Shown here one piece after another: positions 7,174 to 45,267 of a stretch of 64,000 bases of DNA. A program made the position numbers and the translations under genes. Location of the stretch: the NCBI GenBank assembly GCA_025055015.1, contig JANWYQ010000131.1, positions 1,856 through 65,855 on the forward strand, written 5' to 3'. The first letter of the stretch is position 1; each line of letters opens with the position of its first letter. The stretch comes from Caldilineales bacterium. Lineage in GTDB: Bacteria; Chloroflexota; Anaerolineae; JAAEKA01. Below the pieces are notes generated by a model. The model saw only the letters and a program-made list of their open reading frames with translations. It ran no database searches and was not told where the DNA came from.

Positions 7174-7208
7174 CTCACCGTTCACCGTTCACCGTTCACT
7201 GTTCACCG
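7174..7208. repeat. tandem repeat (CACCGTTCAC)x3-4 immediately upstream of the metX start
   Basis: ctcaccgttcaccgttcaccgttcactgttcaccgcc read directly from the sequence. Confidence 0.7.
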
Positions 7209-9321: not shown

Positions 9322-11115
9322 CTAGCGATGGACGGTCACCTCGGCCAGCAGCACGCTGTCGCGGCCGTCGTCGGTGCGCAGGCGGGGGAGGCCGGGCCGA
9401 CCCGCGTCGTACAGCCCCGCCACCAGCCGATAGGCGCCCGGCGGCAGGTCCGCCGGCAGGGGGAGCACGTAGGGGTCCTCTACGACCTCGCCTGCCAGCC
9501 AGGTGTTGGTGGGCTTGCGGCCGCCCAGGGGCACGTGGTCGTCCTGCGCCACCAGGCGGCCCTCGGCGTCCAGCAGGTGCACGAAGCCGGTGTAGGAGGT
9601 CTCCATGCGCTGCACGGCACGCCAGCCCAGGGTGATGGCCAGCGCCTGGCCGGGCCGCAGGTCCGCCGGGTCGCTGTCCCAGCGCGCGCCCAGCAGCTCG
9701 ACGAGGAAGGCGAAGTTGGCAGGGCCCCCGACGTCGAGGGGCGCGCTCGGTTGAAAGCGCCGGGTGCTGGGGAGCACGGTGATGGCCAGATCCGCCGTCT
9801 GGCCGGCGAAGGGGGCGTCGTTGCGGCCGGCGGCCGGGTTCAACAGGCCCAGGCGCAGCTGCCGAGGGCCGGGCGCCATGTCCGGCGATGGAACGACGGC
9901 GACCTGGCCGCGCACCACCGCGCCCACCGGCCACCGGCTGGTGGGGAAGCCCTGGGCGGTGGGCGAGAGCCAGCTGTCGCCCGGCTGCGCCCGGCCGTCC
10001 GGCTCCACCCACCGGTAGCCGAAGGGATAGTCGCGCTCGACAGGCTGGGTGGCCTGCCACCAGGTGTTCACCCGGATCGGCTCGCCCGGCTCCACCTCCG
10101 TGCGGTCGGCGGTCAGCGCCAGCAGCAGGATGCCCGGCGCAGCCTCGATGGCCTGGGCGTCGGCAGGCGGGCCGTTGGGGCCGTCGGTCACCAGCCCCTG
10201 GGCCACCACCGGCTCCAGCCACGCCCAACGCCCCTGGGGCGCACCGGCCGCGTCCAACACGTCCAGAGCCTGGCCGCTGTCCGCGTCGTACACGCCCAGG
10301 CGCAGGCGGTACTCGCCCGGCGGGGTGCCCAGGTCGGCAGGGACGTCCAGCCGGCTGAGGACCGCCACGCCCGCCGGCCAGCGGAAGGTGGGGTAGGTGT
10401 AGGCAGCCAGCCGGCGGTCCAGGGGCGCGCTCCAGGCCTCGTCGGTGTAGCGGCCGTAGAGGGCGGCAGTGAGCTTGAGATCGGCCGTCAGCGGCTGCAG
10501 CGCCTGCCAGAAGAGGTAGACGGGGCACAGGGGCTGCGCGCAAGGGGGCTGGGAGTAGCCCAGCAGCAGCACCTGGCCGCCGAAGTTGACGTTCAGGGCC
10601 TGGCCCTGGTAGGCGGCGGTGAGGGGGAGCTCGGTGGGGAAGGCCGTCTCCTGGCCCACGGCGCCGACGAAGCGGTAGTGCTGCGGCGCGCCCAGGCCCC
10701 AAAAGCTGGCCTCCGCCGGCCGGGCGTCGCCGACGGTGTCCAGCAGGAAGGGCACCACGCCGTTGGGGTCCACCACCTCGGCCTGCCACTGCACCAGCCA
10801 GGCCCCGCGGCGACCGGCCAGCGCGGCGTTCATCGGCTGGGCCACCCGCAGGTCCAGCACGGCGTTCACGTCCAGGGTTTCGATCTCCGGCAGCCGCACC
10901 GGCTCCACGTCGGCCGCATAGTAGCGCCAGGCGGGGTAGGCGTGGCCGCTCACCAGCACCACGCGCTCGTCCGGCCGCAGCTGAGATTTGACATAAGCAA
11001 CCGCACCGCGCCAGTCGTCCTTGGTGAAGGCGGGGTCGGTGAACCAGGCGCGGGTGGAGGAGGCGAAGAGGAGAAGGAGGAAAAGAAGGGAAAGGAGGGA
11101 AAGAAGGGACGGCAA
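9322..11115 (-). CDS. large extracytoplasmic domain protein, probably the C-terminal part of the upstream GT-C glycosyltransferase (frameshift or fusion) or a separate anchored protein
   Basis: Strong G/C third-position bias from about 11050 downward. N-terminus is hydrophobic and low-complexity. No recognisable catalytic motif. The TTG start call is uncertain. Confidence 0.45.
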   Translation of the reverse strand: MPSLLSLLSLLFLLLLFASSTRAWFTDPAFTKDDWRGAVAYVKSQLRPDERVVLVSGHAYPAWRYYAADVEPVRLPEIETLDVNAVLDLRVAQPMNAALAGRRGAWLVQWQAEVVDPNGVVPFLLDTVGDARPAEASFWGLGAPQHYRFVGAVGQETAFPTELPLTAAYQGQALNVNFGGQVLLLGYSQPPCAQPLCPVYLFWQALQPLTADLKLTAALYGRYTDEAWSAPLDRRLAAYTYPTFRWPAGVAVLSRLDVPADLGTPPGEYRLRLGVYDADSGQALDVLDAAGAPQGRWAWLEPVVAQGLVTDGPNGPPADAQAIEAAPGILLLALTADRTEVEPGEPIRVNTWWQATQPVERDYPFGYRWVEPDGRAQPGDSWLSPTAQGFPTSRWPVGAVVRGQVAVVPSPDMAPGPRQLRLGLLNPAAGRNDAPFAGQTADLAITVLPSTRRFQPSAPLDVGGPANFAFLVELLGARWDSDPADLRPGQALAITLGWRAVQRMETSYTGFVHLLDAEGRLVAQDDHVPLGGRKPTNTWLAGEVVEDPYVLPLPADLPPGAYRLVAGLYDAGRPGLPRLRTDDGRDSVLLAEVTVHR

Positions 11116-12386
11116 ACGGTGAACGGTGGGCGGTGGGCGGCGGGCGGCAGGCGGTGGCCGGTGGGAGTAGAACGGACGGTAGAGGGGCTACGGTCGGCGG
11201 TTTGCGCAAAGGGGAGGGAGAGGGCGCCGGCCAGGAGCAGGAGGAAGGCGGGGGAGGCCAGCATCAGGTAGCGCGGGTTGAACTTGGGGTTGCTGTAGCT
11301 GAGCAGCAAGATGCTGACCAGCGGCCCCAGCAGGTAGATCAGCACGAAGAGGACCGCTCCGCAGCGCGGCAGTGCGGCCGGCCCGTCGGCCGATCTGCCG
11401 CCCTGGTCCCCAAGCTGGCCCCCCTCCCAGGCATCGCCCCCCTTGGCAGCGGCCGCCTGAGCCCATGGGCGCCTCCGGCAGCCGGCCCAGAGCAGCGCCC
11501 CCGCGCCCGCCGCCGCCAGGCCCACCACGGCCCAGGCCAGGGGCGCCGCCCGCTGCTCCAGCATGGTCTCGCCCACGGTGAAGCTGATGGCCACGTGGCG
11601 GAGGGCCTCGTCCAGCTTCAGCGTGCCCCGCCAGTAGCTGGCGTCCTCGCCGAAGCGGCGCAGCGCGTTGGGCAGCCAGGGCAGGTAGGCCGCCGCCATC
11701 ACGGCCGCTGCCAGGCCACCCTCGGCCAACAGGCGCCCCCGCGGCCGCAGCCCGCCGGCCAGCCACGCCAAGGCGAAGTACAGCCCGAAGGAGGCCAGCA
11801 GAAACGCGGCGAAGTAGTGGGTATAGAGCGCGGCCACGCCGGCCAGGACGAACACCGCCCACCACCGCAGCCGGTCGGCTGGACTGGCCCCGGCGGCCGA
11901 GCCTGTCGAAGCCCCGGCGGCCTCCACCCGCAGCAGCGCATACCCCGCCAGCATCCCCAGCGCGGTCAACAGGGTGTACATGCGCGCCTCCTGGCTGTAG
12001 TACACCCACAGGGGATGTACCGCGGCCATCAGCGCAACCACTAGCCCGGCGGTGCGCCCGAACAGCCGCCGGCCCAGCGCATAGACCAGCGCCACCATCA
12101 GGACGCCGAACCACGCCGAGGGGAAGCGCAGGGCCCACTCGCCCAGGCCGGCCAGCCGCGTCCACCCCGCCACCGCGGCGTAGTACAGCGGCGGCTGGAT
12201 GTCGTCCGCGGTCCACCGCGCCAGCTCCGCCAGGCCCTGTTGCACCACCTGCGCGGTCACCGCCTCGTCGTACCACAGGGATTGGGCGTCCAGGCGGTAG
12301 ACGCGCAGCGCAAAGGCCAGGGCCAGCACGGCCACCAAGGCCCAGCGTGGGGCTACCCGGCGTTGCCGATCGGCGAGCACGGCCAT
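10950..12386 (-). CDS. GT-C family glycosyltransferase, PMT_2/ArnT-like membrane domain; coding signal in this frame ends near 11200
   Basis: SLWYDEAVTAQ (the DE motif of GT39/GT83 transferases) and about 11 TM helices. The last ~80 codons of the called ORF are proline/serine low-complexity and overlap the next ORF in another frame. Confidence 0.6.
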   Translation of the reverse strand: MAVLADRQRRVAPRWALVAVLALAFALRVYRLDAQSLWYDEAVTAQVVQQGLAELARWTADDIQPPLYYAAVAGWTRLAGLGEWALRFPSAWFGVLMVALVYALGRRLFGRTAGLVVALMAAVHPLWVYYSQEARMYTLLTALGMLAGYALLRVEAAGASTGSAAGASPADRLRWWAVFVLAGVAALYTHYFAAFLLASFGLYFALAWLAGGLRPRGRLLAEGGLAAAVMAAAYLPWLPNALRRFGEDASYWRGTLKLDEALRHVAISFTVGETMLEQRAAPLAWAVVGLAAAGAGALLWAGCRRRPWAQAAAAKGGDAWEGGQLGDQGGRSADGPAALPRCGAVLFVLIYLLGPLVSILLLSYSNPKFNPRYLMLASPAFLLLLAGALSLPFAQTADRSPSTVRSTPTGHRLPPAAHRPPFTVCRPFFPSFPFFSSFSSSPPPPAPGSPTPPSPRTTGAVRLLMSNLSCGRTSAWCW

Positions 12387-12472
12387 TGCGCCTCGATCCA
12401 TCCAACGAACCAACCGCGCGACCACACGGCCGCACAACCTCCTGATCGCAGGAGCAGCACGATCTCACCGCC

Positions 12473-13582
12473 TCACGCCCGCCCGAACTCCCTGACCGCC
12501 GCCGCCACGCGCGCCACGTCGGTCGGGGCAAGCTGCGGATACATGGGCAGGGAGAGCACCTCGGCGGCCGCGGCCTCGGTGGCCGGCAGGCCGCCGGCGG
12601 GCGCCAGGCGGCGGTAGGCGGGCTGTTGGTGAACCGGTACGGGGTAGTGGATGGCTGTGGCCACGCCACAGCGGGCCAGGTGGGCGACCAGGGCTTTCCG
12701 CTGCCGCGTGCGCACCACGTACAGGTGGTAGACGTGCTCGTTGCCCGGCGCTACCGCCGGCGGGACCACGTCCGCTCCGGCCAGCAGCTTGTCGTACAGC
12801 TGCGCCAGGGCTTGCCGCTGTCGGTTCCACCGCTCTAGGTGGCGCAGCTTGACCCGCAGCAGCGCAGCCTGGAGCTCGTCCAGCCGGCTGTTGACCCCTG
12901 CCACGTCGCTGACGTAGCGCTCCCGCCAGCCGTATTGCCGCAGCAGCCGCACCCGCTCGGCCACCTCCGGCCGGCGGCTAACCACCATGCCGCCGTCGCC
13001 GGCTGCGCCCAGGTTCTTGGTGGGGTAAAAGCTAAAACAGCCCGCGTCCCCTACCGTGCCCACGGGCCGGCCTCGCCAGCGCGCGCCGTGGGCCTGGGCG
13101 CAGTCCTCGACGAGCCACAGCCCATGGTGGGCGGCCAGGGCCCCCAGGCGGTCCAGGTCGGCGGCCTGGCCGTACAGGTGCACGGCCACGATGGCCCGGG
13201 CGCGGGGGCCGATCACCCGGTCGGCGTGGTCCGGGTCCAGAGTGTAGGTGTCGGGCCGGATGTCGGCGAAGACGGGGGTGGCGCCGGCCATCTCCACCGC
13301 GGCGACGGTGGCCACCGCGGTGTGGCTGGGCACGATCACCTCGTCGCCGGGGACCACGCCGCAGGCCCGCAGGGCCAGGTGGAGCGCGTCGGTGCCGGAG
13401 TTGACGCCCACGGCCGCCTCGGCGGGCAGGCCCAGCCAGGCGGCGAACTCCGCCTCGAAGCGGCGGACCTGCTCGCCCAGCACGTACCAGCCGGAGCGCA
13501 GCACCTCCAGCGCTGCGGCCTCCAGCTCCTGGGCCAGCTCGGCGTGGGCAGCCTGCAGGTCAAGGATCGGAACGGTGCTCAT
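12473..13582 (-). CDS. DegT/DnrJ/EryC1/StrS family sugar aminotransferase (ArnB-like), PLP-dependent
   Basis: Family-wide conservation (VNSGTDALHLAL, FSFYPTKNLGA..DGG, lysine region). Confidence 0.85.
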   Translation of the reverse strand: MSTVPILDLQAAHAELAQELEAAALEVLRSGWYVLGEQVRRFEAEFAAWLGLPAEAAVGVNSGTDALHLALRACGVVPGDEVIVPSHTAVATVAAVEMAGATPVFADIRPDTYTLDPDHADRVIGPRARAIVAVHLYGQAADLDRLGALAAHHGLWLVEDCAQAHGARWRGRPVGTVGDAGCFSFYPTKNLGAAGDGGMVVSRRPEVAERVRLLRQYGWRERYVSDVAGVNSRLDELQAALLRVKLRHLERWNRQRQALAQLYDKLLAGADVVPPAVAPGNEHVYHLYVVRTRQRKALVAHLARCGVATAIHYPVPVHQQPAYRRLAPAGGLPATEAAAAEVLSLPMYPQLAPTDVARVAAAVREFGRA

Positions 13583-14652
13583 GGTACGTAGTGCTGCCAG
13601 TGTTGGCGGTAGTAGGCGATCATGCGCGCCAGGCCCTCGGCCAGGGGCGTGGTGGGCTGCCAGCCCAGGGCTTGCTGGATGGCCGCGTAGCTGGAGTACA
13701 CGTCGCCCACGTCAATGCGGCGCCGGTTCTCCGGCCACGGCACCAGCTCCACCTGACCCCGGCCGGCGATGGCCACGATGAGGCGCGCCAGGTCCACCAG
13801 GGCGATGGGCTCGCTGCCGCCTAGGTTGAACACCCGGCCGTCGGCCGCGTCGCTGGCGCCCGCGCGCAGAAAGGCGTCCACCACGTCATCCACGTAGGTC
13901 AGGTCGCGGCGCTGGCGGCCGTCGCCGTAGACCTGGATGGTGCGCCCCTCCATGGCCAGGCGCACGAACCAGGCGATGAAGCCCTGGCGGCTGTGGCGCA
14001 TGAGCTGTCGGGGGCCGTAGGTGTTGGTAAGGCGCAGGCTGCAGGTGCGCAGGCCGTAGGCTGTTCCGTACACCAGGTGAAAGAGCTCGCCCGCCAGCTT
14101 GTTGACGCCGTTGACGTCGGTGGGACGGTTGGGGTGCGCCTCGTCCAGGGGCAGGTAGAGGGGCCGGCCGTAGCACTGGCGGGTGCCGGCGTACACGACC
14201 TTGGCGTCGGGGCTGTGGCGGCGGCAGGCCTCCAACAGGCTCAGCGGGCCGCGCGCGTTCAGCTCTAAGTCGTTGAACGGGTCCACCATGGAGTCCAGGT
14301 GGCTTACCTGGCCGGCCAGGTTGAACACCACCTGGCAGCCGGCCACCAGGGCGTCCATGGCCTCTCGGTCGCGCACGTCGGCGATGTGAACCTGCAGGCG
14401 GTCGCGCATGTCGGCCAGGTTGAAGGGGTTGCCGCCGCAGTCGGGCGCCAGCGAGTCTACCACCACCACGTCGGCGCCCAGCTCCACCAACCGCCGGGCC
14501 AGGTTGGAGCCGATGAACCCCAGCCCGCCGGTGACCAGCACGCGGCGACCGCGATAGAACTCGTAGACTGGACCAGCCTCAGGCGCGGCGATCCCCGGCG
14601 TGCTGCGAGGCAGGCTGGCCCAGTCTGGTGGCGTGGAAGATACGCGGTTCAT
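13579..14652 (-). CDS. NAD-dependent nucleotide-sugar epimerase/dehydratase (SDR family)
   Basis: VLVTGGLGFIGSNL Rossmann motif and the YxxxK-containing region. Overlaps the downstream DegT gene by 4 nt (ATGA). Confidence 0.85.
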   Translation of the reverse strand: MNRVSSTPPDWASLPRSTPGIAAPEAGPVYEFYRGRRVLVTGGLGFIGSNLARRLVELGADVVVVDSLAPDCGGNPFNLADMRDRLQVHIADVRDREAMDALVAGCQVVFNLAGQVSHLDSMVDPFNDLELNARGPLSLLEACRRHSPDAKVVYAGTRQCYGRPLYLPLDEAHPNRPTDVNGVNKLAGELFHLVYGTAYGLRTCSLRLTNTYGPRQLMRHSRQGFIAWFVRLAMEGRTIQVYGDGRQRRDLTYVDDVVDAFLRAGASDAADGRVFNLGGSEPIALVDLARLIVAIAGRGQVELVPWPENRRRIDVGDVYSSYAAIQQALGWQPTTPLAEGLARMIAYYRQHWQHYVP

Positions 14653-14658
14653 GCTCGT

Positions 14659-17271
14659 CTATTGGCTGGCGCAGGCCTCTGCAGCTACGGCGCAGGCCAG
14701 GTCGGGCGCCGGCCGGGCGGTGGCGTCCACCTCTAGCTCGCCGATAGCCAGGCTGTCGCCCACCGGCAGGCCGTCCGCGCCCAGCAGCGCCAGGCGCTCC
14801 AGCGTCTCCCAGTAGTACCAGCCGATCACCAGGCGATAGCGCCCCGGCGGCAGGTCTGCCGGTACCTGGATGGCGTAGGCAGCGACCACGGGCTGACCCG
14901 CCGCCCACTGCGAGGTGGGCAAGGGCCCGAACCAGCGCGGGGGCGCGTCGCCCTGGGCGACGTTGCGGTCCGCAGCGTCGCGCACGTGGACAAAGACTGT
15001 GTAGTCCCGCAGGGCGGGGCCGCTGCCCTCCCAGCGCAGCACCAGCCGCGCGATGGAGTCCGGCGCCGTGCGCGGGGGCAGGGCCACGCCGGTGAGCCGC
15101 GCGGTCCAGCCGTCGCCGCCGAACAGAGCGTCGGCCGGCTTGAGCGCGGGCGGCGGCGCAGGGACCAGTCGGCTGCGCTCCCAGCGCTGGGGCGCCAGGC
15201 GGACCCAGGTGTTGCCCTCGAACAGGGCGGTGTCCGCTGCGTCGGCGGGGGTGCGGTCCACGGCCGGCCAGCGGCGGCCCACGTCCTCCCACGAGCCGCC
15301 GCTGTGGACGCCCACAGCCGGCGCCCACTCCTTGGGCAGGTACCAGGGCAGGCGAGCGACGACCACCGTCTCGCCCACGGGCCATGCCTCCGGCGGGAAC
15401 CACAGGGGCTGGATGAAGGGCCGCAGGTCGGTGCTGTCCACCTCCTGGCCGTCCGGGGTGAGCACGAAGAGGCGCAGCTGGGTGTCGGGCGGCAGCGGCT
15501 CCAGCGCCTGCCAGTACAGCCGGAAGCCCACCGTGCGCCAGCGGCGGTCCTCCAGCAGGTCGTAGCCCACCAGGCGCAGCCGGCCGTCGAAGGTCACGTC
15601 CAGCTTGACCTGGGGCTCGCCGGCCGGCCGGGCAAAGGTGAAGAACTCGTCGGGCAGGGCGGCTGTCCAGGGCGAGGGGCCGGCCACAGGGCTCGCCTGT
15701 CGGGCCAGCAGCAGGTAGCCGTCCGCCCCGTCCTGCACCCGCCACTGTCCAGAGCCGATCATCTCAGCCACTTGGTCACGCAGGGCTGTGGGGTGCATGG
15801 CCCATCCGGTCTGCGCGGCCAGGTCCATCAGCACGTACTCGGCGTCGGCCACGGTGGGAAGGCTGTAGATGCGCTGCCGGTGGCTCAGGTGGGGATAGAG
15901 CACGTCGGTGGTCGCCACGGCCGCGTCGGCCGGGATCTGCGCGATGAAGCGAGCCAGCAGCCGGTGATGGTCGGTGATCGGCGGCCAGTAGTAGCGGAAC
16001 TGACGGCCGATGGGGGTGTAGCCCCAGGCTGCCTGGCTGCCCAGGCTCCAGACCACTAGCCAGCCGATCAAGAACAGGTAGCGATGGTGGGCGCGCCAGA
16101 GCCGGCGATGGCGGCTGAGCAGCACCACGCGGCGCGCCTGGCTGCGCAGGCGGTGGCTGCCCACCACGGCGGCCACCAAGGCATAGGCCGCCAGGGGCGC
16201 GGAGTAGTGAAGCTGGCCGCTGTACTGGAAGGCGAAGCCGCTGAGCAGGTTGGCCAGGAAGAGGGGCAGCCCCAGCGCCAGGTAGTCGGGCGCAAAGAGA
16301 GCTAGGAAGCCCACGGGCGCCAGCAGTCGCAGCGCGTAGGCGATGCGCATGGGCTCCAGCGCGATCTGGAGCACCAGCAACGGCCGGGTCACCAGGCTGC
16401 GCAGCACGTCGCCGAAGCTGTCGCCCAGCGCGCCGAAGCGCGCTGCGTAGGGCGTCTCGCTCAAGCCGTAGGCCTCGGCGGCGTGGGCGGGGATGACCAC
16501 AAAGGTGGCCAGGTAGAACCAGGCCAGGCCGCCGACTAGGACCAGGCCGCCGGCCGCCAGGGCCGCACGGGCCGCCGGCGCGTCGGCGCCCTCCTGCCGC
16601 CGCAGCCGAAGGCCCAGCACCAAGGCGTAGACGCCCAGGGCTGCGGCCAGCAGCGCCGTTCCCTCCTGCACGGCGGCCACCAGCAGCGCGGCCAGGGCAA
16701 AGCGAACCCACTGCCCCCGCGCAGCGAAGAGAAACGCAAAGAGGATGAAGGGCGTGGCCAGCGGCAGGGCGTGGAACTCGGCCACGTTGGCAGCCTGGAG
16801 GGGCGGATAGAGCAGGTAGGCCAGGGCAAAGGCCAGGGCCAGCAGGCCGAGGTAGCGTCGGCTGCGCAGCCCTTGTTGCCGCTGGCTGCCGAAGCGCTGC
16901 CATGCCAGGCTGAACACGGGCCAGGCGCCCACCGCCAGCGCCACCGACTGCACCACCAGCAGGGCCCGCACGTCGTCCCACACCCAGAACACGGGGGCCA
17001 CCAAAGCAAAGATGGGCTCCACGTGGTCGGTCAGCCGTGTGCTGACCTGGTCTCCCTTGATCTCCTGCACGAAGCGGCCCTGGCTGGTGTTCCAGATGGC
17101 CTGGTCAATCTGCCCTAGGTCGGCCCGGTGGGTGCGATGGGCCTCGTGCTGGCGGATGGAGAGGGCAGAGAAGTAGAGGGCGTAGGCTGCCACCATGAGC
17201 CACAGCGCAGCCATAGCCCAGCGCGGCGGCCGCCCTGGCTGCGTCCCCCGCGGTTGGGGCGCGTTGTTCAT
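14659..17271 (-). CDS. DUF2079-like large membrane protein (GT-C-like) with C-terminal extracytoplasmic domain
   Basis: HRADLGQIDQAIWNTSQGRF motif as I recall for DUF2079 and about 12 TM helices followed by a roughly 400-aa soluble domain. Family assignment is from memory. Confidence 0.55.
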   Translation of the reverse strand: MNNAPQPRGTQPGRPPRWAMAALWLMVAAYALYFSALSIRQHEAHRTHRADLGQIDQAIWNTSQGRFVQEIKGDQVSTRLTDHVEPIFALVAPVFWVWDDVRALLVVQSVALAVGAWPVFSLAWQRFGSQRQQGLRSRRYLGLLALAFALAYLLYPPLQAANVAEFHALPLATPFILFAFLFAARGQWVRFALAALLVAAVQEGTALLAAALGVYALVLGLRLRRQEGADAPAARAALAAGGLVLVGGLAWFYLATFVVIPAHAAEAYGLSETPYAARFGALGDSFGDVLRSLVTRPLLVLQIALEPMRIAYALRLLAPVGFLALFAPDYLALGLPLFLANLLSGFAFQYSGQLHYSAPLAAYALVAAVVGSHRLRSQARRVVLLSRHRRLWRAHHRYLFLIGWLVVWSLGSQAAWGYTPIGRQFRYYWPPITDHHRLLARFIAQIPADAAVATTDVLYPHLSHRQRIYSLPTVADAEYVLMDLAAQTGWAMHPTALRDQVAEMIGSGQWRVQDGADGYLLLARQASPVAGPSPWTAALPDEFFTFARPAGEPQVKLDVTFDGRLRLVGYDLLEDRRWRTVGFRLYWQALEPLPPDTQLRLFVLTPDGQEVDSTDLRPFIQPLWFPPEAWPVGETVVVARLPWYLPKEWAPAVGVHSGGSWEDVGRRWPAVDRTPADAADTALFEGNTWVRLAPQRWERSRLVPAPPPALKPADALFGGDGWTARLTGVALPPRTAPDSIARLVLRWEGSGPALRDYTVFVHVRDAADRNVAQGDAPPRWFGPLPTSQWAAGQPVVAAYAIQVPADLPPGRYRLVIGWYYWETLERLALLGADGLPVGDSLAIGELEVDATARPAPDLACAVAAEACASQ

Positions 17272-18308
17272 GCCTGGGCCTCCTGAGAGGCTTCCCGGTC
17301 GGCCTCATGCCGCACAGGGGGAGGAAGGGCTTCCTCGGCCCCGCGGCGACGGCCCAGGAGCACGGCCAGGGCGACGCCCAGCAGCTCGCCGGCCACCATC
17401 CACAGCCGAGCTGCCAGGGCCACGACGGTGGGCGCGGGCGCAGGAAGGATGGGGGTCAGCAACAGCACCATGACCCCCTCGCGCACGCCAAGGCCGCTGG
17501 GGGTGAGCAAGCTGAGATAGCCGATGACGTAGGCTGCAGCCCAGGTGGCCACCAGCGCCGGCGCCTCCGCCCGGCCGACAGACGTCACCGAGGCCGCCAA
17601 GAGGGCGAAGGCGCCGCCCATGATCAGCCACACGCCCAGGTAACCCAGGAGCGCCGCCGCCACCTGTTGCCAGGTGAGGGTCACCTGCACCGGCGGCCGC
17701 CGCAGGAGGCGCAAGGCCTGGTTGAGCAGCCACTCCAACAGCCGCGGATGGCAGAACACCAGGCCCAGGGGCACCAGCCACAGCGCAGGGCGCACGGCCT
17801 CCAGGAGCGCGCCCTGGCCGGCCGCGGCGAAGTAGACCGCCGCCACCACCAGGCCCACGGCGGTGCTCAGGGCCTGGTGGAGAGCGATGCTGGTGAAGGT
17901 GGTGAGCCGGCCGACGCCGCTGTCGGCGGCCAGCTCGGCCATGCCCAGGAACTGCCAGATGTTGCCGGGGATGTAGCGCACCAGGTTGGAGTAGAACCAG
18001 ACTTGAGCGGCGCGGCGCCAGGACAGCGCTCCCCCCACGCCGGCCAACAGGAAGCGCCAGATGGAGAGCTCCACCAGCCAGGCTGCCAGCAGGCCCCCCA
18101 GGCTGAGGACCAGCCAAGCGGGCCGCAAGGTCCAGGGGAAGGCCCGCAGCTCCTGCCACTGGCTGATCACCAGGGCGGCCAGAAAGCCTAGCGATGCGAC
18201 CACCGCGGCCAGACGAACAGCCTTCTTCCAGCGGCCCGCAGGCCGGGAGGCAACCGCCGGTGGGCCAGCTTCCTGGGCTGCGGCGGCCGGTTCTCTCAAA
18301 AGCGCCAT
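17268..18308 (-). CDS. UPF0104 / lysylphosphatidylglycerol-synthase-TM-like flippase-like membrane protein
   Basis: Conserved PSGLGVREG motif and 8 TM helices. Overlaps the neighbouring gene by 4 nt. Confidence 0.6.
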   Translation of the reverse strand: MALLREPAAAAQEAGPPAVASRPAGRWKKAVRLAAVVASLGFLAALVISQWQELRAFPWTLRPAWLVLSLGGLLAAWLVELSIWRFLLAGVGGALSWRRAAQVWFYSNLVRYIPGNIWQFLGMAELAADSGVGRLTTFTSIALHQALSTAVGLVVAAVYFAAAGQGALLEAVRPALWLVPLGLVFCHPRLLEWLLNQALRLLRRPPVQVTLTWQQVAAALLGYLGVWLIMGGAFALLAASVTSVGRAEAPALVATWAAAYVIGYLSLLTPSGLGVREGVMVLLLTPILPAPAPTVVALAARLWMVAGELLGVALAVLLGRRRGAEEALPPPVRHEADREASQEAQA

Positions 18309-18317
18309 GCCGCTATT

Positions 18318-19601
18318 CTACCCCTGCCCCGCGAGGCGCGCAAAGTGGTCTAAGTACCGGCGGGCCAGGGGAGGCCAGCCGAACTCGGTCTCCACCAGCC
18401 GGCGGCCGGCTGCACCCATGGCCTGGCGCTGTTCGGGCGAGAGGGCAGCCAGGCGCAGGATGGCGCCGGCCAGGGCGGCGGGGTCCTGCTCCGGGATCAG
18501 GTAGCCGTTGACGCCGTTGCGGATCACCAGCTCGTTGCCGGCGGCCGTGCTGCCGATCACCGGCTTGGCGCAGGCCATGGCATCCAGCACGCATACGTTC
18601 AGGCCGTCGGCCGGCCGGGTGACCGAGGGCATGACCAGCGCGTCGGCCGCGTTGTAGTAGGCGGGGATCCGGTCGAAAGGCACGCGGCCCACCCAATGCA
18701 CGCAGCCCTCCAGCCCCAGGTCTCGCGCCAGCGCCTGCCACGCCTGCCACAGGTCGCCGTCTCCCACCAGGGCTAGGTGGATGGGGGGCAGGCGGTGGGG
18801 GCCGGCAGGGGAGGGCGAGCAGGCCAACAGGCCGCTCTGTCTCAGGACGCCCAGGCTGCGCAGCAGCACGTCGAAGCCCTTCTTGTAGACCATGCGGCCC
18901 ACGGCCAGCAGCAGGAGCGCGTCGGCCGGCACGCCCAGGCTGGCCCGCAGCTCGGCCGTCCCGGTGGGGTCGGGGCGCAGCGCGCCGGGGTCCACGCCGT
19001 AGATGATCAGGTCAAAGCGAGCAGGGTCTGCGCCCAGGTCGCGGACCGCTACCTCCTGCAGCGCGTGGCTGTTGGCCGTCACCAGGCCGGCCTGGTCCAG
19101 GGCGAAGCGGGCCATGCGGCGAAAGAGGGGGTTCTGGCCGGCTACCAGCGCGTCGGAGCCGGGGATGGAGACCACCAGGGGGATGCCCAGCAGCCGGCCG
19201 GCCGCGGCGCCGAAGAAGCCGTTGGGCAGCAGCCAGTGGGCGTGGATCACGTCGGGGCGATGGCGACGGCACCAGCGGAGCGCGGCGGCCACGCCAGCGG
19301 CGAAGAAGGCCGGGGCCAGCCAGTAGGTTTCCCGCCGCATGCGGACGTCGGCCTCCATGGTGCGCATGTAGCCCAGGCGGTGCCAGTCGCCGCGCGGGGC
19401 GTAGCGCCACAGGTAGAGCTGCGGCCGATGGGAGGCTTGGGGCCCGGCCTGCCCGTCAACGGTGTAGGCGGCGTCCCACGGGGCCAGCACCGAGACGCGG
19501 TGGCCCTGCCGCGCCAGCTCCTGGCTCAGCGCGGCCACAAAGCTGCCGCTGAAGTCGCCGGGGAAACGAGGGTAGTTGTGGGTGAGAACGGCGATGTGCA
19601 T
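18318..19601 (-). CDS. glycosyltransferase family 1 (GT4-type, GT-B fold)
   Basis: Glycos_transf_1 C-terminal region (E-x7-E context, GFDVLLRSL, NAADALVMPS). Start taken at MHIAVLTHNYP. Confidence 0.8.
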   Translation of the reverse strand: MHIAVLTHNYPRFPGDFSGSFVAALSQELARQGHRVSVLAPWDAAYTVDGQAGPQASHRPQLYLWRYAPRGDWHRLGYMRTMEADVRMRRETYWLAPAFFAAGVAAALRWCRRHRPDVIHAHWLLPNGFFGAAAGRLLGIPLVVSIPGSDALVAGQNPLFRRMARFALDQAGLVTANSHALQEVAVRDLGADPARFDLIIYGVDPGALRPDPTGTAELRASLGVPADALLLLAVGRMVYKKGFDVLLRSLGVLRQSGLLACSPSPAGPHRLPPIHLALVGDGDLWQAWQALARDLGLEGCVHWVGRVPFDRIPAYYNAADALVMPSVTRPADGLNVCVLDAMACAKPVIGSTAAGNELVIRNGVNGYLIPEQDPAALAGAILRLAALSPEQRQAMGAAGRRLVETEFGWPPLARRYLDHFARLAGQG

Positions 19602-19739
19602 GGAGAAAGGGCTAGCCGCGAAGTAGGCCACGGCTGTGGCCCAGGGCAAGAGGGGATTATAGCATCGGGCCGACGGCGGGGCAATTGGACGGCGCTATGA
19701 TTTGGGGCCGGACGGCGGATGCGGTATAAGGGGTCGGCT

Positions 19740-20537
19740 ATGGCCGAGCACCACGAACGCAGCTACACCGCCATCACCGAGATGCCGGGAAGCCTGGTCA
19801 CCGAGGAGCAGCGGGCCCGACTGCGCCACCGCTATGCCTTGGCGCGGAGCCACGCAGCCGGCCGCCGGGTGCTGGAGGTGGCCTGCGGCGCCGGCCTCGG
19901 CTTGGCCGCCGTGCGGGAGACGGCCGCCTGGCTGGTGGGCGGGGACTACACCACAGATGCCCTGGACGCGGCCCAGGCGCACTACCGGGGCGCGGTGCCC
20001 CTGGTGCGCCTGGACGCGCAGCGGCTGCCCTTCGCCGACGGCTCCTTCGACCTGGTCCTGTGCTTCGAGGCGATCTATTACTTCCCCCGGCCGATCGAGT
20101 TTCTGGCGGAGTGCCACCGGGTGTTGGCGGCCGACGGCCTGCTGCTGATCGGCAGCGAGAACAAGGCGTGGCCGCACTTTGTCCCCGGCCCCCTGAGCGT
20201 GGCCTACTACGCCACGGCGGAGCTGGCGGCCCTGCTGGCCCAGGCGGGGTTCGTCGCCGTGGAGGCGCTGGGCGCCTTTCCGGTGGAGCACCTGTCGCCG
20301 CGGCAGCGGGCGCGGGCCTGGCTGCGCCGCGGGGTCATGGCCACCGGCCTGTTCCGGCGCTGGCCGTGGGCGCGGGAGCGGCTGAAGCCCCTGGTCTACC
20401 GAGACCTACAGCCGCTGAGCTACGACCTGGCCCAGCAGCCATGGGGGCCGTTGCCTGTTCATCCCCTGGACCCCCAGGCCGACAACCGCGAGTTCAAGGT
20501 GATCTACGCGCTGGCGCGGCGCGGGCCGCGCTGCTAG
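19740..20537 (+). CDS. class I SAM-dependent methyltransferase
   Basis: VLEVACGAGLG motif I and DLVLCFEAIYY motif. Confidence 0.7.
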   Translation: MAEHHERSYTAITEMPGSLVTEEQRARLRHRYALARSHAAGRRVLEVACGAGLGLAAVRETAAWLVGGDYTTDALDAAQAHYRGAVPLVRLDAQRLPFADGSFDLVLCFEAIYYFPRPIEFLAECHRVLAADGLLLIGSENKAWPHFVPGPLSVAYYATAELAALLAQAGFVAVEALGAFPVEHLSPRQRARAWLRRGVMATGLFRRWPWARERLKPLVYRDLQPLSYDLAQQPWGPLPVHPLDPQADNREFKVIYALARRGPRC

Positions 20538-20767
20538 GGGCGCGCACCCCGCGAAGTTGACCTACCGCAGCGACACCCCGGCCCTGTGGGGTGAGAAACG
20601 TGGCCGCGAAGGCGCGAAGGTGAGCGCGAAGGCGCGAAGCGCTGGAATGGGTACGATCTCAAATCGTTCCGGGCAACGGAGCGGACGCCTTTGCGGTCCT
20701 GGAGATCCTTCGTCGGGTGTGGATCTCACACCGGATGGTCGCGCAGCGCCACGTAGCCGCGCCCGCG

Positions 20768-21742
20768 TCAGCGACCTTTCTCCCGCAGCCGGTGCTCCAG
20801 CTCCCGGATCTGCTCGCTCTGGCTGACGATGAGCTCGGCGATGAAGCCCACCAGGATCAGCAACAACCCGGCCAGGGCCAGGATGCCGGCGGCGATGAAG
20901 ATGGGGCGCTTTTGGGTCTGGGCGGCGAGCCACAGGCCCAGCAGGAAGGCGAAGGTAACGAAGGAGACGCCCAGGCTGATCAACCCGAGGCCGCCGAAGA
21001 AGCGCATGGGCGCCTGGCTGAAGGTGAGCAGGAAGCGCACCACCAACACGTCCAGGAAGGAGATGGGGATGCGGCCGATGCCGAACTTGGAGCGGCCGGC
21101 GCGGCGGCGATACCAGTTGGTGGGCACCTCGCCGATGCGGAAGCCCTGGTAGGCCGCAATGTGCAGGATGAAGCGGTGCCAGTCGGAGCGCAGGGGGGGC
21201 AGCTCCTCGATCACCTCCCGGCGAAAGGCCTTGATCCAGTTCATGTCGTGCACGGGCACGTCGAACAGCAGGCGGGAGACCCGGTTGTAGATGGCCGAGG
21301 CGAAGACCTTGCCCTCCTTGCGGTTCTGCCGCCAGCCGGCCACCACGTCGTAGCCCTCGTCCAGCTTGGCCAGCAGCTTGGGGATGTCCTCCTCCGGGTC
21401 GGACTCCAGGTCGGCGGGCAGGAAGACGATCACGTCGCCCTGCACGTGGCGGAAGCCGGTGCGCAGCGCAGCGGTGAGCCCCAGGTTGCGGCGGTGGCGC
21501 ACCAGGCGCAGGAAAGGATAGCGATCGGCCAGGCTGGCGGCCCGGTCGCCGGTGCCGTCGGTGGAGCCGTCGTCCACCAGCACCAGCTCGCAGGCGGTGC
21601 CCTGGGCCATCAGGGGCCGGAAGGCGCGGTCCACCTTCTCCAGCAGCAGGGGGATGTTGTCCGCCTCGTCCCGCGCGGGGATCAAGACGGAGAGGAGGCG
21701 CGTCGAGGGGGGCGCGGCGGCGGAGGTCGGCAAGTCGCTCAT
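20768..21742 (-). CDS. polyprenyl-phosphate glycosyltransferase, GT2 (ArnC/GtrB-like)
   Basis: PADLESDPEEDIPKLLAKLDEGYDVVAGWRQNR matches ArnC [32 protein letters not shown]. Two C-terminal TM helices. Confidence 0.8.
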   Translation of the reverse strand: MSDLPTSAAAPPSTRLLSVLIPARDEADNIPLLLEKVDRAFRPLMAQGTACELVLVDDGSTDGTGDRAASLADRYPFLRLVRHRRNLGLTAALRTGFRHVQGDVIVFLPADLESDPEEDIPKLLAKLDEGYDVVAGWRQNRKEGKVFASAIYNRVSRLLFDVPVHDMNWIKAFRREVIEELPPLRSDWHRFILHIAAYQGFRIGEVPTNWYRRRAGRSKFGIGRIPISFLDVLVVRFLLTFSQAPMRFFGGLGLISLGVSFVTFAFLLGLWLAAQTQKRPIFIAAGILALAGLLLILVGFIAELIVSQSEQIRELEHRLREKGR

Positions 21743-21749
21743 GGCCGGA

Positions 21750-23825: not shown

Positions 23826-23864
23826 CGTGCGCTCCTGAACAAGCGATGAGAGACCACCCTGAGC

Positions 23865-23892
23865 TTATAGCACGGCCTCCCCACTTTGTCAA
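23865..23892 (-). promoter_or_regulatory. sigma70-type promoter for ptrB and the GT2 gene
   Basis: Minus strand reads TTGACA-17nt-TATAAG, about 30 nt before AGGAG and ATG 23825. Confidence 0.5.
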
Positions 23893-24111
23893 CGCCTGGG
23901 AACCTTTCGACGAGAGGGGCAGCTGGTTGCGCTGGTCTCCCGGGGCCGGGCAGCGCCGATCAACGACCGGGGCGGGCCGGCCGTCCGGTCGAAGCGATCA
24001 GGGCACGGCTCCTCGCCGCCGAAGGTGGCGCGAAGGCGCCCCGCCGCGGCCTCTCGAAACGCCCTGTGGGCGAGAGGTCTTGCCTCCCCATCGCAGTGCT
24101 CTGCCGCGGCT

Positions 24112-29600: not shown

Positions 29601-29893
29601 CTGGGCCAGGGCGTAGACCGGGCCAGGGGGCAGCCCGTCCTGGGCGGTGTAGCTGCTCCAGGCGCCGTCGAAGTGGCTCAGGCCGCTGCGAGTGCCAAAC
29701 CAGACGCTGCCGTCGGGCTCGACCACGATGCTGCGCACGTTGCCGCCCGGCAGCTCCTCGGTGAAGGAGGTCCAGCCCACCCCGCCGGCGCCCTGCGCCC
29801 GGCCCGTCCAGGCACGGGGAAGACAGACCATGCCCAGGCTGGCCAGGGCGGCGGCGAGGAGCGCTAACTGCCAGGGCCGCAGGCGAGGCTGGG
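26586..29893 (-). CDS. transmembrane sensor: signal peptide + about 11-14 Reg_prop propeller blades + Y_Y_Y domain + TM helix + cytoplasmic AAA_35-like NTPase-HTH
   Basis: Repeated xLWVGTxxGLxRFD blades. EFTFEVEAWS-type Y_Y_Y region. Hydrophobic segment followed by RSRRRRR. FNPYVSGDPIQTSDMFFGRQE...IQGERRIGKTSLL Walker A, ILLLDEVD Walker B. The ORF runs to 29969, but the likely start is the GTG near 29893, which gives a canonical signal peptide. Confidence 0.75.
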
Positions 29894-30032
29894 CCACCTT
29901 AAATTTTGTGCGAGAGTTAGACGTTTGTAACCTGCAATGGTTGTCAGCAGGCGTAAAATATGCTATCATCGTTTTCAGCTAGTTTGACAAACGCCGCCGG
30001 AGCCTGCTCCTCTCAGCGTTTCTGGAGGCCAT

Positions 30033-45226: not shown

Positions 45227-45267
45227 GCGCGCCGGCATCTTTGAGTTTTCGAGCACGATCACGGTCT

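What the first reader, a model, noticed from the sequence alone, without database searches (positions are those of the whole stretch)
9322..21742. Arn-like lipid-linked amino-sugar glycosylation operon
About 10 kb is co-directional on the minus strand with 4-10 nt overlaps or gaps. It encodes a GT4 glycosyltransferase, a UPF0104 flippase-like protein, a DUF2079 GT-C-like membrane protein, an SDR nucleotide-sugar epimerase/dehydratase, a DegT (ArnB-like) aminotransferase and a PMT_2/ArnT-like GT-C transferase. An ArnC/GtrB-like polyprenyl-phosphate GT2 lies nearby at 20768. This is the logic of the ArnA/ArnB/ArnC/ArnT pathway: nucleotide amino-sugar to polyprenyl-phosphate carrier to GT-C transfer on the outer face. 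Here it sits in an organism whose other genes (lgt, LysM, no LPS genes seen) do not suggest lipid A as the acceptor. The target is probably a cell-wall polymer, lipoprotein or protein O-glycosylation.
Basis: partly seen in the sequence, partly recalled or inferred. Interest (0 to 1): 0.55.

Follow-up and report, generated by a model that had tools for sequence, protein, structure and literature searches.

The report
Chloroflexi envelope amino-sugar glycosylation operon
This is a real gene cluster, conserved across one class of Chloroflexi, that probably makes amino sugars, attaches them to membrane lipid carriers, flips them outward and transfers them onto an unknown non-LPS envelope component; it only partly resembles the Arn pathway, and one transferase gene is broken here by loss of a 7-base repeat unit.

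Summary
Every domain call is correct and the GT4-to-PMT_2 run is a tight minus-strand operon. The source is a Caldilineales (Chloroflexota) MAG.

- A plus-strand methyltransferase separates the GT2 from the operon here. Relatives have GT2 directly upstream of GT4.
- "PMT_2" and the 597-aa ORF are one roughly 1,030-aa GT-C gene split by a frameshift. A 99.9 % identical assembly carries one extra heptanucleotide unit and an intact gene.
- Both DegT aminotransferases resemble C-3 aminotransferases (DesV, QdtB, WbpE) far more than ArnB.
- The SDR is not ArnA-like. Its whole orthogroup has Asn in place of the catalytic Tyr.

Across 80 species loci the cluster resolves into two sub-modules. DegT2 + ArnC-like GT2 (+ PMT_2) follows Arn-like logic. 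GT4 + SDR + DegT1 + DUF2079, usually with a UPF0104 flippase that is sometimes fused to DUF2079, looks more like gpgSDF/hexSDF amino-glycolipid or lipomannan logic.

DUF2079 models as a GT-C fold. The product and acceptor remain unknown.

The parts
24112..25224 (-). DegT2: PLP sugar aminotransferase, paired with the GT2 in relatives
   Evidence: Pfam DegT_DnrJ_EryC1, 445 bits. Best solved relatives are DesV (411 bits), QdtB and WbpE; ArnB scores only 231. The PLP-lysine motif FSFFPGKNLG is present. It never occurs without the GT2 in 34 species loci. It is 51 % identical to DegT1.
21750..23825 (-). Prolyl oligopeptidase (S9), inserted between DegT2 and GT2. Probably not part of the glycan system.
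   Evidence: Pfam Peptidase_S9_N and Peptidase_S9. Found at this position only in the closest relatives (L006/L008), 1 of 34 loci.
20768..21742 (-). GT2: polyprenyl-phosphate glycosyltransferase of ArnC/GtrB/DPMS type
   Evidence: Pfam Glycos_transf_2. NCBIfam PgfS 105.7 and ArnC 101 bits, both below cut-off. Solved relatives: ArnC 111 bits over residues 15-305, GtrB 74, DPMS 73. TM helices at 248-275 and 278-310. Lies directly upstream of GT4 in L005, L006 and L012.
19719..20537 (+). SAM-dependent methyltransferase on the opposite strand, lineage-specific insertion between GT2 and GT4
   Evidence: Pfam Methyltransf_11, 73.8 bits. Same position and orientation in L011 (68 % identity) and L089. 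Absent in L005 and L006.
19656..19684 (-). Promoter-like site just upstream of GT4
   Evidence: TTGCCC-17-TATAAT with an extended -10 TG, 10 of 12 matches. It is the only site found in 16.6 kb, but the count is not above the shuffle expectation.
18318..19649 (-). GT4 (GT-B) glycosyltransferase, first gene of the operon in this genome
   Evidence: Pfam Glyco_trans_1_4, Glycos_transf_1 and Glyco_transf_4. No NCBIfam equivalog; MshA 94, BshA 85 and GlcNAc-PG synthase 56 bits are all far below cut-off. It is the constant partner of DUF2079 in the minimal operons L004 and L088.
17268..18308 (-). UPF0104 / MprF-type (PplT) flippase-like membrane protein
   Evidence: Pfam LPG_synthase_TM and multiple TM segments. 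Lies immediately upstream of DUF2079 in most loci. Fused to DUF2079 in 14 of the 120 best DUF2079 homologues. DUF2079 is the only fusion partner seen in its orthogroup.
14659..17271 (-). DUF2079: GT-C-fold membrane protein with C-terminal beta-sandwich domains; centre of the conserved cluster
   Evidence: Pfam DUF2079, 217 bits. AF2 full-length model pLDDT 86.5. The TM-domain model's top Foldseek hits are all GT-C: STT3A, PIG-U, PglB, Stt3, ALG9, AftA, ArnT and EmbC. Acidic residues D51, D56, D82 and E85 are invariant in the first outer loop. No solved sequence relative and no literature.
13579..14652 (-). Extended SDR (nucleotide-sugar oxidoreductase/epimerase class) with an atypical T-N-K active site
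   Evidence: Pfam Epimerase, 176 bits. Best solved relatives are GalE-like enzymes and CDP-tyvelose 2-epimerase. Asn181 aligns to the catalytic Tyr. The motifs GTRQxYG and PTD[VI]NGVNK are invariant in 25 orthologues. The orthogroup is at least 69 % identical across the top 120 homologues.
12473..13582 (-). DegT1: PLP sugar aminotransferase, translationally coupled to the SDR (4-nt overlap)
   Evidence: Pfam DegT, 412 bits. Solved relatives: 7b0d 391, DesV 372, QdtB 307 and WbpE 266 bits, against ArnB 192. Co-occurs with the SDR 10/1/4/19.
10950..12437 (-). PMT_2 GT-C gene, N-terminal (membrane, catalytic) part, ending in an out-of-frame tail
   Evidence: Pfam PMT_2, 47.9 bits, and PMT, 28.6 bits. 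Invariant SLWYDE loop-1 motif. Orthologues are single ORFs of 650-1,023 aa.
11124..11165 (-). Heptanucleotide tandem repeat (CCCACCG-type units) in the PMT_2 linker; site of the frameshift
   Evidence: TRF period 7, 6.0 copies. Adding one unit in silico gives a 1,040-aa ORF. L089 is 99.90 % identical over 13,074 nt, has exactly one extra unit (CACCGTT) and an intact 1,023-aa gene.
9322..11115 (-). PMT_2 GT-C gene, C-terminal part: one TM helix plus an extracytoplasmic beta-rich domain of about 570 aa
   Evidence: Aligns to the C-terminal two-thirds of the intact orthologues. The frame is open from about 11187. Shares a repeat module with the DUF2079 C-terminus (45 % over 83 aa, E 1e-13). No Pfam hit.

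Best explanation
The locus is the local copy of a class-wide Anaerolineae/Caldilineales envelope-glycoconjugate cluster. Its fullest form is DegT2-GT2-GT4-UPF0104-DUF2079-SDR-DegT1-PMT_2(-MptA/B-like GT-C).

I propose two coupled arms.

Arm A (core):
- The atypical SDR and DegT1 convert a common nucleotide sugar into a nucleotide amino sugar, probably 3-amino (inferred).
- The cytoplasmic GT4 places a sugar on a membrane lipid (inferred by analogy with GpgS, HexS and PimA).
- The MprF-type UPF0104 protein flips that glycolipid (inferred).
- The GT-C-fold DUF2079 protein then acts on it at the outer face.

Arm B (Arn-like):
- DegT2 feeds an amino sugar to the ArnC-like GT2.
- The GT2 loads it on polyprenyl phosphate.
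- After flipping, the PMT_2 GT-C (and DUF2079) use it as donor to extend or decorate the lipid-anchored glycan or another non-LPS envelope acceptor.

In this genome copy the PMT_2 step is switched off by loss of one heptanucleotide repeat unit.

Shown: gene content, folds and families, synteny, fusions, co-occurrence and the repeat polymorphism. Inferred: all substrates, the order of steps and the acceptor.
For: Gene families.

Conserved order in relatives at 85, 66 and 60 % identity, including GT2 directly before GT4 and an intact PMT_2.

80 species loci, all Chloroflexota, with UPF0104 directly upstream and PMT_2 directly downstream of DUF2079.

UPF0104::DUF2079 fusions in 14 of 120 homologues. 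DUF2079 is the only fusion partner seen in the UPF0104 orthogroup.

Minimal operons are GT4 + UPF0104::DUF2079 (L004) and GT4-SDR-DegT-DUF2079 (L088). GT4 and DUF2079 are therefore the common denominator.

Co-occurrence gives two sub-modules:
- DegT2-GT2: 14/0/3/17
- SDR-DegT1: 10/1/4/19
- GT4-DegT1: p = 0.005
- GT2-PMT_2: p = 0.04

The GT2 is ArnC/GtrB/DPMS-like with two TM helices.

DUF2079 has a GT-C fold.

DUF2079 and PMT_2 share a C-terminal beta-sandwich module, which suggests a common acceptor.

Experimental precedents:
- GT-B + UPF0104 flippase makes amino-sugar lipids (gpgSDF, PMC12713373; hexSDF, PMC10128005).
- A GT2 + UPF0104 + PMT/STT3-like GT-C neighbourhood is conserved in archaea (PMC5898192).
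Against: - No biochemical data exist for any member of this cluster.
- GT4 has no specific similarity to lipid-directed GT4 enzymes (GpgS model 56 bits against a cut-off of 480; PimB' 50 bits).
- The GT-C assignment of DUF2079 rests on weak Foldseek E-values (0.014-0.9) and TM-scores of 0.35-0.46. A profile comparison with PMT_2 shows nothing.
- The SDR lacks the canonical catalytic Tyr, so it is unclear how the keto-sugar needed by the aminotransferases is made.
- No N-acyl or formyl transferase is present, unlike Arn.
- Only about half of the well-flanked loci carry each accessory gene. The co-occurrence statistics also ignore phylogenetic non-independence.
Confidence: 0.4

Rival explanations
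1. A strict Arn-like pathway. One nucleotide amino sugar (SDR + DegT) is loaded on polyprenyl phosphate by the GT2, flipped, and transferred as a single residue by the PMT_2/ArnT-like GT-C onto a pre-existing envelope polymer. GT4 and DUF2079 would be ancillary.
For: The GT2's best solved relative is ArnC. The DegT2-GT2 pairing mirrors arnB-arnC. The PMT_2 family includes ArnT-like enzymes. GT2 and PMT_2 co-occur.
Against: GT4, UPF0104 and DUF2079, not GT2 and PMT_2, are the invariant core. The DegTs are C-3-aminotransferase-like rather than ArnB-like. The SDR is not ArnA-like and no formyltransferase, deformylase or ArnE/F is present. The PMT_2 profile finds no ArnT among solved structures. 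PMT_2 is dispensable in this genome, where it carries the OFF allele.
Confidence: 0.2
2. A simple cationic amino-glycolipid system of the gpgSDF/hexSDF type. GT4 glycosylates a phospholipid or glycolipid with an amino sugar, UPF0104 flips it, and the result is a change in membrane charge. The GT-C proteins would serve a separate, merely adjacent glycosylation function.
For: GT4 and UPF0104 are adjacent, separated by a 9-nt gap. Experimental precedents are PMC12713373 and PMC10128005. An amino-sugar supply (SDR + DegT1) is linked to GT4.
Against: UPF0104 is fused to DUF2079, not to GT4. The minimal operon L088 has GT4-SDR-DegT-DUF2079 without UPF0104, so the GT-C is integral rather than incidental. 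GT4 is not a GpgS orthologue. There is no deacetylase.
Confidence: 0.15
3. Protein O-glycosylation. The GT2 makes a polyprenyl-P-sugar, and the PMT_2 and DUF2079 GT-C enzymes transfer it to Ser/Thr of secreted proteins, lipoproteins or S-layer/sheath proteins, as in actinobacterial Ppm1/Pmt or S. mutans Pgf.
For: PMT_2 also hits the PMT family and has a PMT-like loop-1 'DE' motif. The GT2's best NCBIfam hit is PgfS. LysM and other surface-protein genes lie nearby.
Against: This does not explain a cytoplasmic GT4 as the constant partner of DUF2079. The large beta-sandwich domains shared by both GT-Cs give weak hints of glycan binding; Wzt_C and NPCBM_assoc match below threshold. All family scores are below equivalog cut-offs.
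Confidence: 0.15

Closest known systems
E. coli/Salmonella Arn (PmrHFIJKLM) pathway: ArnA, ArnB, ArnC, ArnD, ArnT, ArnE/F
   Same: - A DegT-family aminotransferase is genetically paired with an ArnC-type polyprenyl-phosphate GT2.
- A PMT_2-family GT-C transferase sits in the same cluster.
- The overall logic matches: nucleotide amino sugar, then lipid carrier, then outer-face transfer.
   Different: - The aminotransferases resemble C-3 enzymes, not ArnB.
- The SDR is not the ArnA decarboxylase and lacks the catalytic Tyr.
- There is no formyltransferase or deformylase.
- The flippase is UPF0104/MprF-type, not the ArnE/F type.
- GT4 and a DUF2079 GT-C are added.
- The host belongs to a phylum grouped with LPS-less monoderms, so the acceptor cannot be lipid A.
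gpgSDF (P. aeruginosa GlcN-phosphatidylglycerol) and hexSDF (C. difficile aminohexosyl-hexosyl-diradylglycerol)
   Same: A cytoplasmic GT-B glycosyltransferase is encoded next to a stand-alone UPF0104/MprF-like flippase. The product carries a free amino sugar on a membrane lipid.
   Different: - Here the amine would come from an aminotransferase acting on a nucleotide sugar, not from a deacetylase.
- GT4 is not a GpgS orthologue (56 bits against a cut-off of 480).
- The flippase is coupled, and sometimes fused, to a GT-C protein that has no counterpart in gpg or hex.
Mycobacterial/corynebacterial PIM-LM-LAM assembly (PimA/PimB' GT4, Ppm1 GT2, PimE/MptA/MptB GT-C); eukaryotic GPI assembly has the same layout
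   Same: - A GT4 primes a membrane lipid in the cytoplasm.
- The intermediate is flipped.
- Several GT-C enzymes extend it outside using a polyprenyl-P-sugar made by a GT2.
- Relatives (L002, L006) carry an MptA_B-family GT-C at the end of the operon.
   Different: - No specific sequence relationship to PimA or PimB' (50 bits).
- There are no inositol-related genes.
- An amino-sugar branch is present.
- The MptA/B-like gene is absent from this window.
- The flippase is identifiable here, whereas to my knowledge it has not been identified in mycobacteria.
Archaeal AglD/Agl23-type neighbourhood (GT2 + UPF0104 + PMT/STT3-like GT-C; Makarova et al. 2015, PMC5898192)
   Same: The same three-part design of lipid-sugar synthase, MprF-type flippase and GT-C. 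Domain fusions link the flippase to a partner enzyme.
   Different: - In archaea the flippase is fused to the GT2 (AglD); here it is fused to the GT-C (DUF2079).
- The PMT_2 protein scores only 39.8 bits against the Agl23 cut-off of 126.
- The system here is bacterial, with added GT4, SDR and DegT genes.

Membership tests
Arn pathway | ArnC-type GT2: GT-A domain plus two C-terminal TM helices, acting on undecaprenyl phosphate | tested here: met
   Architecture and similarity are met: ArnC is the best solved relative (111 bits over residues 15-305) and TM helices lie at 248-275 and 278-310. The protein is below the NCBIfam ArnC cut-off (101 against 529), so it is ArnC-like, not an ArnC orthologue. 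The substrate was not tested.
Arn pathway | ArnB: UDP-4-keto-pentose C-4 aminotransferase | tested here: not met
   NCBIfam ArnB model scores 236 and 267 bits against a cut-off of 631. Solved ArnB scores 192 and 231 bits, against 372-411 for DesV and 266-342 for QdtB and WbpE, which are C-3 aminotransferases.
Arn pathway | ArnA: UDP-GlcA C-4 oxidase/decarboxylase fused to a formyltransferase | tested here: not met
   ArnA model scores 33.8 bits against a cut-off of 777. There is no formyltransferase domain. The SDR has T-R-Q and N-x-x-x-K in place of T-S-E and Y-x-x-x-K.
Arn pathway | ArnD deformylase and ArnE/F small flippase subunits | tested here: not met
   No such domains occur among the genes from 9322 to 25224. 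The only flippase-like gene is UPF0104.
Arn pathway | ArnT (GT83) GT-C transferring to lipid A | tested here: inconclusive
   The Pfam PMT_2 family is met (47.9 bits), but the orthologue profile finds no solved ArnT at E <= 1. The host phylum is grouped with monoderms lacking an LPS outer membrane (PMC10608941), so lipid A is not expected.
GT-C glycosyltransferase superfamily (for DUF2079) | Multi-helix membrane domain of GT-C topology with acidic residues in the first outer loop, plus an extracytoplasmic domain | tested here: met
   AF2 models have pLDDT 86.5 and 83.3. Five of the top six Foldseek hits for the TM domain are GT-C proteins, namely STT3A, PIG-U, PglB, Stt3 and ALG9, with probability 0.92-1.0 and TM-score 0.35-0.46; ArnT, AftA and EmbC follow. 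D51, D56, D82 and E85 are invariant. The E-values are weak, and catalytic activity cannot be tested here.
gpgSDF / hexSDF amino-glycolipid systems | GT-B lipid glycosyltransferase adjacent to a UPF0104/MprF-type flippase | tested here: met
   GT4 and UPF0104 are separated by 9 nt. The arrangement is conserved in relatives.
gpgSDF / hexSDF amino-glycolipid systems | GpgS-type GlcNAc-PG synthase orthology and a partner deacetylase | tested here: not met
   NF053787 scores 56 bits against a cut-off of 480, over the C-terminal part only. No deacetylase domain is present in the cluster.
PIM/LM/LAM-type lipoglycan pathway | PimA/PimB'-type GT4, Ppm1-type GT2 and MptA/MptB-type GT-C | tested here: inconclusive
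   GT4 against PimB' scores 50 bits. GT2 against DPMS scores 73 bits. An MptA_B-family GT-C is present in relatives L002 and L006 but absent from this window. The lipid acceptor cannot be tested with these tools.
Extended SDR nucleotide-sugar enzymes | GxxGxxG NAD site and the S/T-Y-K catalytic triad | tested here: not met
   The NAD motif TGGLGFIGSN is present and Thr157 and Lys185 are present. The Tyr is replaced by Asn181 in all 25 orthologues examined. The protein is a fold member with an atypical active site.

The most novel reading that the evidence does not exclude
DUF2079 is a new kind of GT-C enzyme that works directly on a GT4-made glycolipid flipped by an MprF-type flippase. That substrate would be an amino-sugar lipid rather than a classical polyprenyl-phosphate donor made by a GT2.

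On this reading, monoderm Chloroflexi would have a lipoglycan or GPI-like membrane anchor pathway of their own. Its keto-sugar would come from an SDR that has dispensed with the catalytic tyrosine. Its outer decoration by PMT_2 would be switched on and off through heptanucleotide-repeat slippage.
Probability: 0.12. Interest if true: 0.75.

Novelty: new variant of a known kind. Interest (0 to 1): 0.45.

Why it matters
I found no study of the surface glycoconjugates of Anaerolineae or Caldilineales, filamentous Chloroflexi that are often recovered from wastewater sludge and sediments. This cluster is a concrete, class-wide candidate for making one of them.

It gives a first functional context to the uncharacterised DUF2079 family: a GT-C fold that is genetically and physically coupled to an MprF-type flippase and a GT4.

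It points to an SDR subfamily without the canonical tyrosine, sitting next to a C-3-type aminotransferase. That is a testable route to a 3-amino sugar without the usual GFO/IDH/MocA-family dehydrogenase.

It offers a natural ON/OFF pair of alleles for one transferase.

Cultured relatives (Litorilinea, Caldilinea) carry the minimal operon, so the questions are experimentally approachable.

If the cluster turns out to be an ordinary polysaccharide decoration system, the gain is limited to annotation.

Tried and rejected
- Sequence-level link between DUF2079 and PMT_2: hhalign probability 2 %. No relationship is visible, so only fold evidence was used.
- DUF2079 and PMT_2 profiles against PDB sequences: no meaningful hits.
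- Foldseek with the full-length DUF2079 model: the hits were swamped by beta-sandwich matches such as arrestin and RbmA. I re-modelled the TM domain alone.
- Literature: nothing on DUF2079. One irrelevant hit for PF09852. Nothing useful on Caldilineae polar lipids or the Chloroflexi envelope.
- SDR as a 4,6-dehydratase or UDP-GlcA decarboxylase: rejected. The motif T-R-Q replaces T-D-E or T-S-E, and Tyr is replaced by Asn.
- GT4 as a GpgS, PimA, MshA or BshA orthologue: rejected. All scores are far below cut-offs.
- The prolyl oligopeptidase and methyltransferase as core members: rejected. They occur in 1 of 34 and 0 of 34 species loci.
- L001 against L002 as a second example of heptamer switching: rejected. 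Their many differences are mostly single-base indels typical of assembly noise.
- Rfam scan of 8000-32000: no regulatory RNA.

Full report
**Observation**

The window is about 70 % G+C. Its DUF2079 protein is 100 % identical to one annotated from a 'Caldilineales bacterium' MAG, so the host is a member of Chloroflexota.

- GT4, 18318-19649
- UPF0104/LPG_synthase_TM, 17268-18308
- DUF2079, 14659-17271
- extended SDR, 13579-14652
- DegT, 12473-13582
- PMT_2, 10950-12437
- GT2, 20768-21742

All are on the minus strand. The junctions are a 9-nt gap, 4-nt overlap, 6-nt gap, 4-nt overlap and a gap of about 35 nt. lgt and LysM genes are also present.

- A SAM-methyltransferase on the plus strand (19719-20537) separates the GT2 from GT4.
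- The GT2 forms a unit with a prolyl oligopeptidase and a second DegT (24112-25224).
- A promoter-like site (TTGCCC-17-TATAAT) sits right before GT4.
- The unassigned 597-aa ORF (9322-11115) is the C-terminal part of the PMT_2 gene.

**The split PMT_2 gene**

The PMT_2 frame and the 597-aa frame overlap by 165 nt. Orthologues are single ORFs of 989-1,023 aa.

The junction lies in a heptanucleotide tandem repeat: window 11124-11165, period 7, six copies. The gene span is 3,116 nt. Adding one repeat unit in silico gives one 1,040-aa ORF with the correct C-terminus.

A second public assembly, L089 (GCA_033578055.1), is 99.90 % identical to the window over 13,074 nt, with six mismatches and one gap. 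That single gap is exactly one extra 7-nt unit in this tract, and PMT_2 is intact there at 1,023 aa.

So the 'ArnT-like' transferase is in an OFF state in this sequence. The cause is either real slipped-strand variation or, less likely, a repeat mis-assembly.

**Comparative genomics**

Look-ups of DUF2079 homologues show the same order in relatives:
- L005 (85 % identity): GT2-GT4-UPF0104-DUF2079-SDR-DegT-PMT_2.
- L006 (66 %): STAND-AAA-DegT2-POP-GT2-GT4-UPF0104-DUF2079-SDR-DegT-PMT_2-MptA_B-like GT-C, with GT2 and GT4 overlapping by 4 nt.
- L002 (60 %): the same core.

The methyltransferase is therefore a lineage-specific insertion, also seen in L011. The GT2 belongs ancestrally to the cluster.

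A scan of GTDB species genomes returned 80 loci, all Chloroflexota (Anaerolineae or Caldilineales). A tblastn map shows three patterns:
- UPF0104 lies immediately upstream of DUF2079 in most loci.
- PMT_2 lies immediately downstream, or after SDR-DegT1.
- DegT2-GT2-GT4 lies upstream in many.

Among 34 loci with long flanks, each accessory gene is present in roughly half. Co-occurrence separates two sub-modules:
- DegT2 is never present without GT2 (14/0/3/17).
- SDR pairs with DegT1 (10/1/4/19).
- GT4 goes with DegT1 and SDR (p = 0.005 and 0.03).
- GT2 goes modestly with PMT_2 (12/5/5/12).

These p-values are descriptive only, because the species are related.

The minimal forms are GT4 + a UPF0104::DUF2079 fusion (L004) and GT4-SDR-DegT-DUF2079 (L088). 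L088 was reached through an SDR homologue that NCBI attributes to cultured Litorilinea aerophila.

Fourteen of the 120 best DUF2079 homologues are fused to UPF0104. In the UPF0104 orthogroup, DUF2079 is the only fusion partner seen.

**The individual proteins**

*GT2.* ArnC is the best solved relative (111 bits, near full length), followed by GtrB and DPMS. The protein has two strong C-terminal TM helices. It is a polyprenyl-phosphate glycosyltransferase by architecture, but below all equivalog cut-offs.

*DegT1 and DegT2.* They are 51 % identical paralogues, and each has the PLP lysine. Both score far higher against the C-3 aminotransferases DesV, QdtB and WbpE than against ArnB.

*SDR.* Its nearest solved relatives are GalE-like enzymes and CDP-tyvelose 2-epimerase. 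In the alignments Asn181 takes the place of the catalytic Tyr, and T-R-Q replaces the T-D-E or T-S-E of dehydratases and decarboxylases. This is invariant in 25 orthologues, while about 30 %-identical paralogues near other DUF2079 genes mostly keep the Tyr. The orthogroup is unusually conserved, at 69 % identity or more in the top 120 homologues. That argues for a functional, constrained enzyme with atypical chemistry.

*DUF2079.* It has no solved sequence relative and no literature.
- AlphaFold models are confident, with pLDDT 86.5 for the full length and 83.3 for the TM domain.
- They show about 13 TM helices followed by beta-sandwich domains.
- The TM domain's best Foldseek matches are all GT-C proteins: STT3A, PIG-U, PglB, Stt3, ALG9, AftA, ArnT and EmbC. 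E-values are weak.
- Invariant acidic residues sit in the first outer loop.

*PMT_2.* It is a Pfam family member with a PMT-like loop-1 'DE' motif. It is not demonstrably ArnT.

DUF2079 and PMT_2 share a C-terminal repeat module (45 % over 83 aa). This hints that they handle the same acceptor.

**Mechanism**

Published precedents frame the interpretation:
- gpgSDF in P. aeruginosa and hexSDF in C. difficile pair a cytoplasmic GT-B with a UPF0104/MprF-like flippase to make amino-sugar lipids (PMC12713373, PMC10128005).
- Archaea keep a GT2 + UPF0104 + PMT/STT3-like GT-C neighbourhood, and AglD is a GT2::UPF0104 fusion (PMC5898192).
- PplT (UPF0104) domains are fused to GT-A and GT-B enzymes, including in Chloroflexi (bioRxiv 10.1101/2022.03.11.483950).

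I therefore favour a two-arm model.
- Core arm: GT4 glycosylates a membrane lipid, with an amino sugar supplied by SDR + DegT1. UPF0104 flips the product, and the DUF2079 GT-C acts on it outside.
- Arn-like arm: DegT2 and GT2 make a polyprenyl-P-amino sugar, which the GT-Cs, notably PMT_2, use as donor.

The layout resembles PIM/LM/LAM and GPI assembly as much as Arn.

The acceptor is unknown. Lipid A is excluded by phylum-level knowledge, since Chloroflexota are grouped with monoderms that lack an LPS outer membrane (PMC10608941).

All substrate assignments are inferences.

**Comparison and verdict**

- The Arn analogy holds for GT2 + DegT2 + PMT_2.
- It fails for ArnA, ArnB, ArnD and ArnE/F.
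- It leaves the conserved GT4-UPF0104-DUF2079 core unexplained.

The cluster is a new variant of the known 'lipid-linked sugar, flippase, GT-C' design. It has three unusual features: a flippase::DUF2079 coupling, a Tyr-less SDR next to C-3-type aminotransferases, and an ON/OFF heptamer tract in one transferase.

Interest is moderate (0.45). The cluster is real, conserved and testable in cultured relatives, but its function rests on inference.

Noticed in passing
window 11124-11165; L089 9380-9660: The PMT_2 GT-C gene is frameshifted inside a heptanucleotide repeat. A 99.90 % identical assembly (L089, GCA_033578055.1) has exactly one more 7-nt unit and an intact 1,023-aa gene. This is a candidate phase-variable (contingency) switch in an environmental Chloroflexi glycosyltransferase, or a repeat mis-assembly.
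   Followed up: yes
window plus loci L001-L087 (1.49 Mb); e.g. L002 8521-8970, 15805-15892, 16047-16092; window 7175-7208: Period-7 tandem repeats dominate all arrays of four or more copies in these Anaerolineae sequences: 130 arrays, against 27 of period 8, 11 of period 6 and 1 of period 3. The unit sequences are diverse. 14 of 38 PMT_2 orthologues carry them inside the ORF, and 30 further arrays fall within DUF2079 match spans. They recall the heptameric STRR repeats I remember from cyanobacteria. Their origin and role are unexplained.
   Followed up: partly
window 13579-14652 (Asn181, Thr157, Lys185): The extended SDR has Asn in place of the catalytic Tyr (T-N-K instead of S/T-Y-K). This is invariant across 25 orthologues, in an orthogroup that is at least 69 % identical over its top 120 homologues. 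How it would oxidise a sugar is unclear.
   Followed up: partly
window 25217-29969: An AAA_22 ATPase and a 1,127-aa STAND NTPase with a Reg_prop beta-propeller and Y_Y_Y domain lie directly upstream of DegT2. They recur at that position in 7-8 of 34 related loci, and may be a regulator of the cluster.
   Followed up: no
window 31796-34612 (-) and 45079-46974 (+): Two further large membrane proteins with GT-C-like signals. One is 938 aa, with a C-terminal ILEI domain and a weak DUF6541 match; an ILEI protein and a LysM protein are also neighbours in L003. The other is 631 aa with a sub-threshold PMT_2 match, just upstream of lgt.
   Followed up: no
window 19719-20537 (+): A SAM-methyltransferase is inserted divergently from GT4 in this lineage and in L011. 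Its best NCBIfam hits are lipid O-methyltransferases (Mtf2, phthiotriol methyltransferase), all below cut-off. It could methylate the glycan or lipid product.
   Followed up: no
L088 4435-6521: In the L088 locus (GCA_026003675.1), a polyprenyl synthase and an FMN-dependent dehydrogenase-family gene (Pfam FMN_dh), which could be a type-2 IPP isomerase, lie about 3 kb upstream of the minimal GT4-SDR-DegT-DUF2079 operon on the opposite strand. This is possibly a link to the lipid carrier.
   Followed up: no
L001 vs L002 (12.8-15.7 kb): Two JGI assemblies of the same organism differ mostly by single-base indels that fragment SDR, DegT and PMT_2 in L001. This is assembly noise, and a caution for pseudogene calls in these data.
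   Followed up: yes
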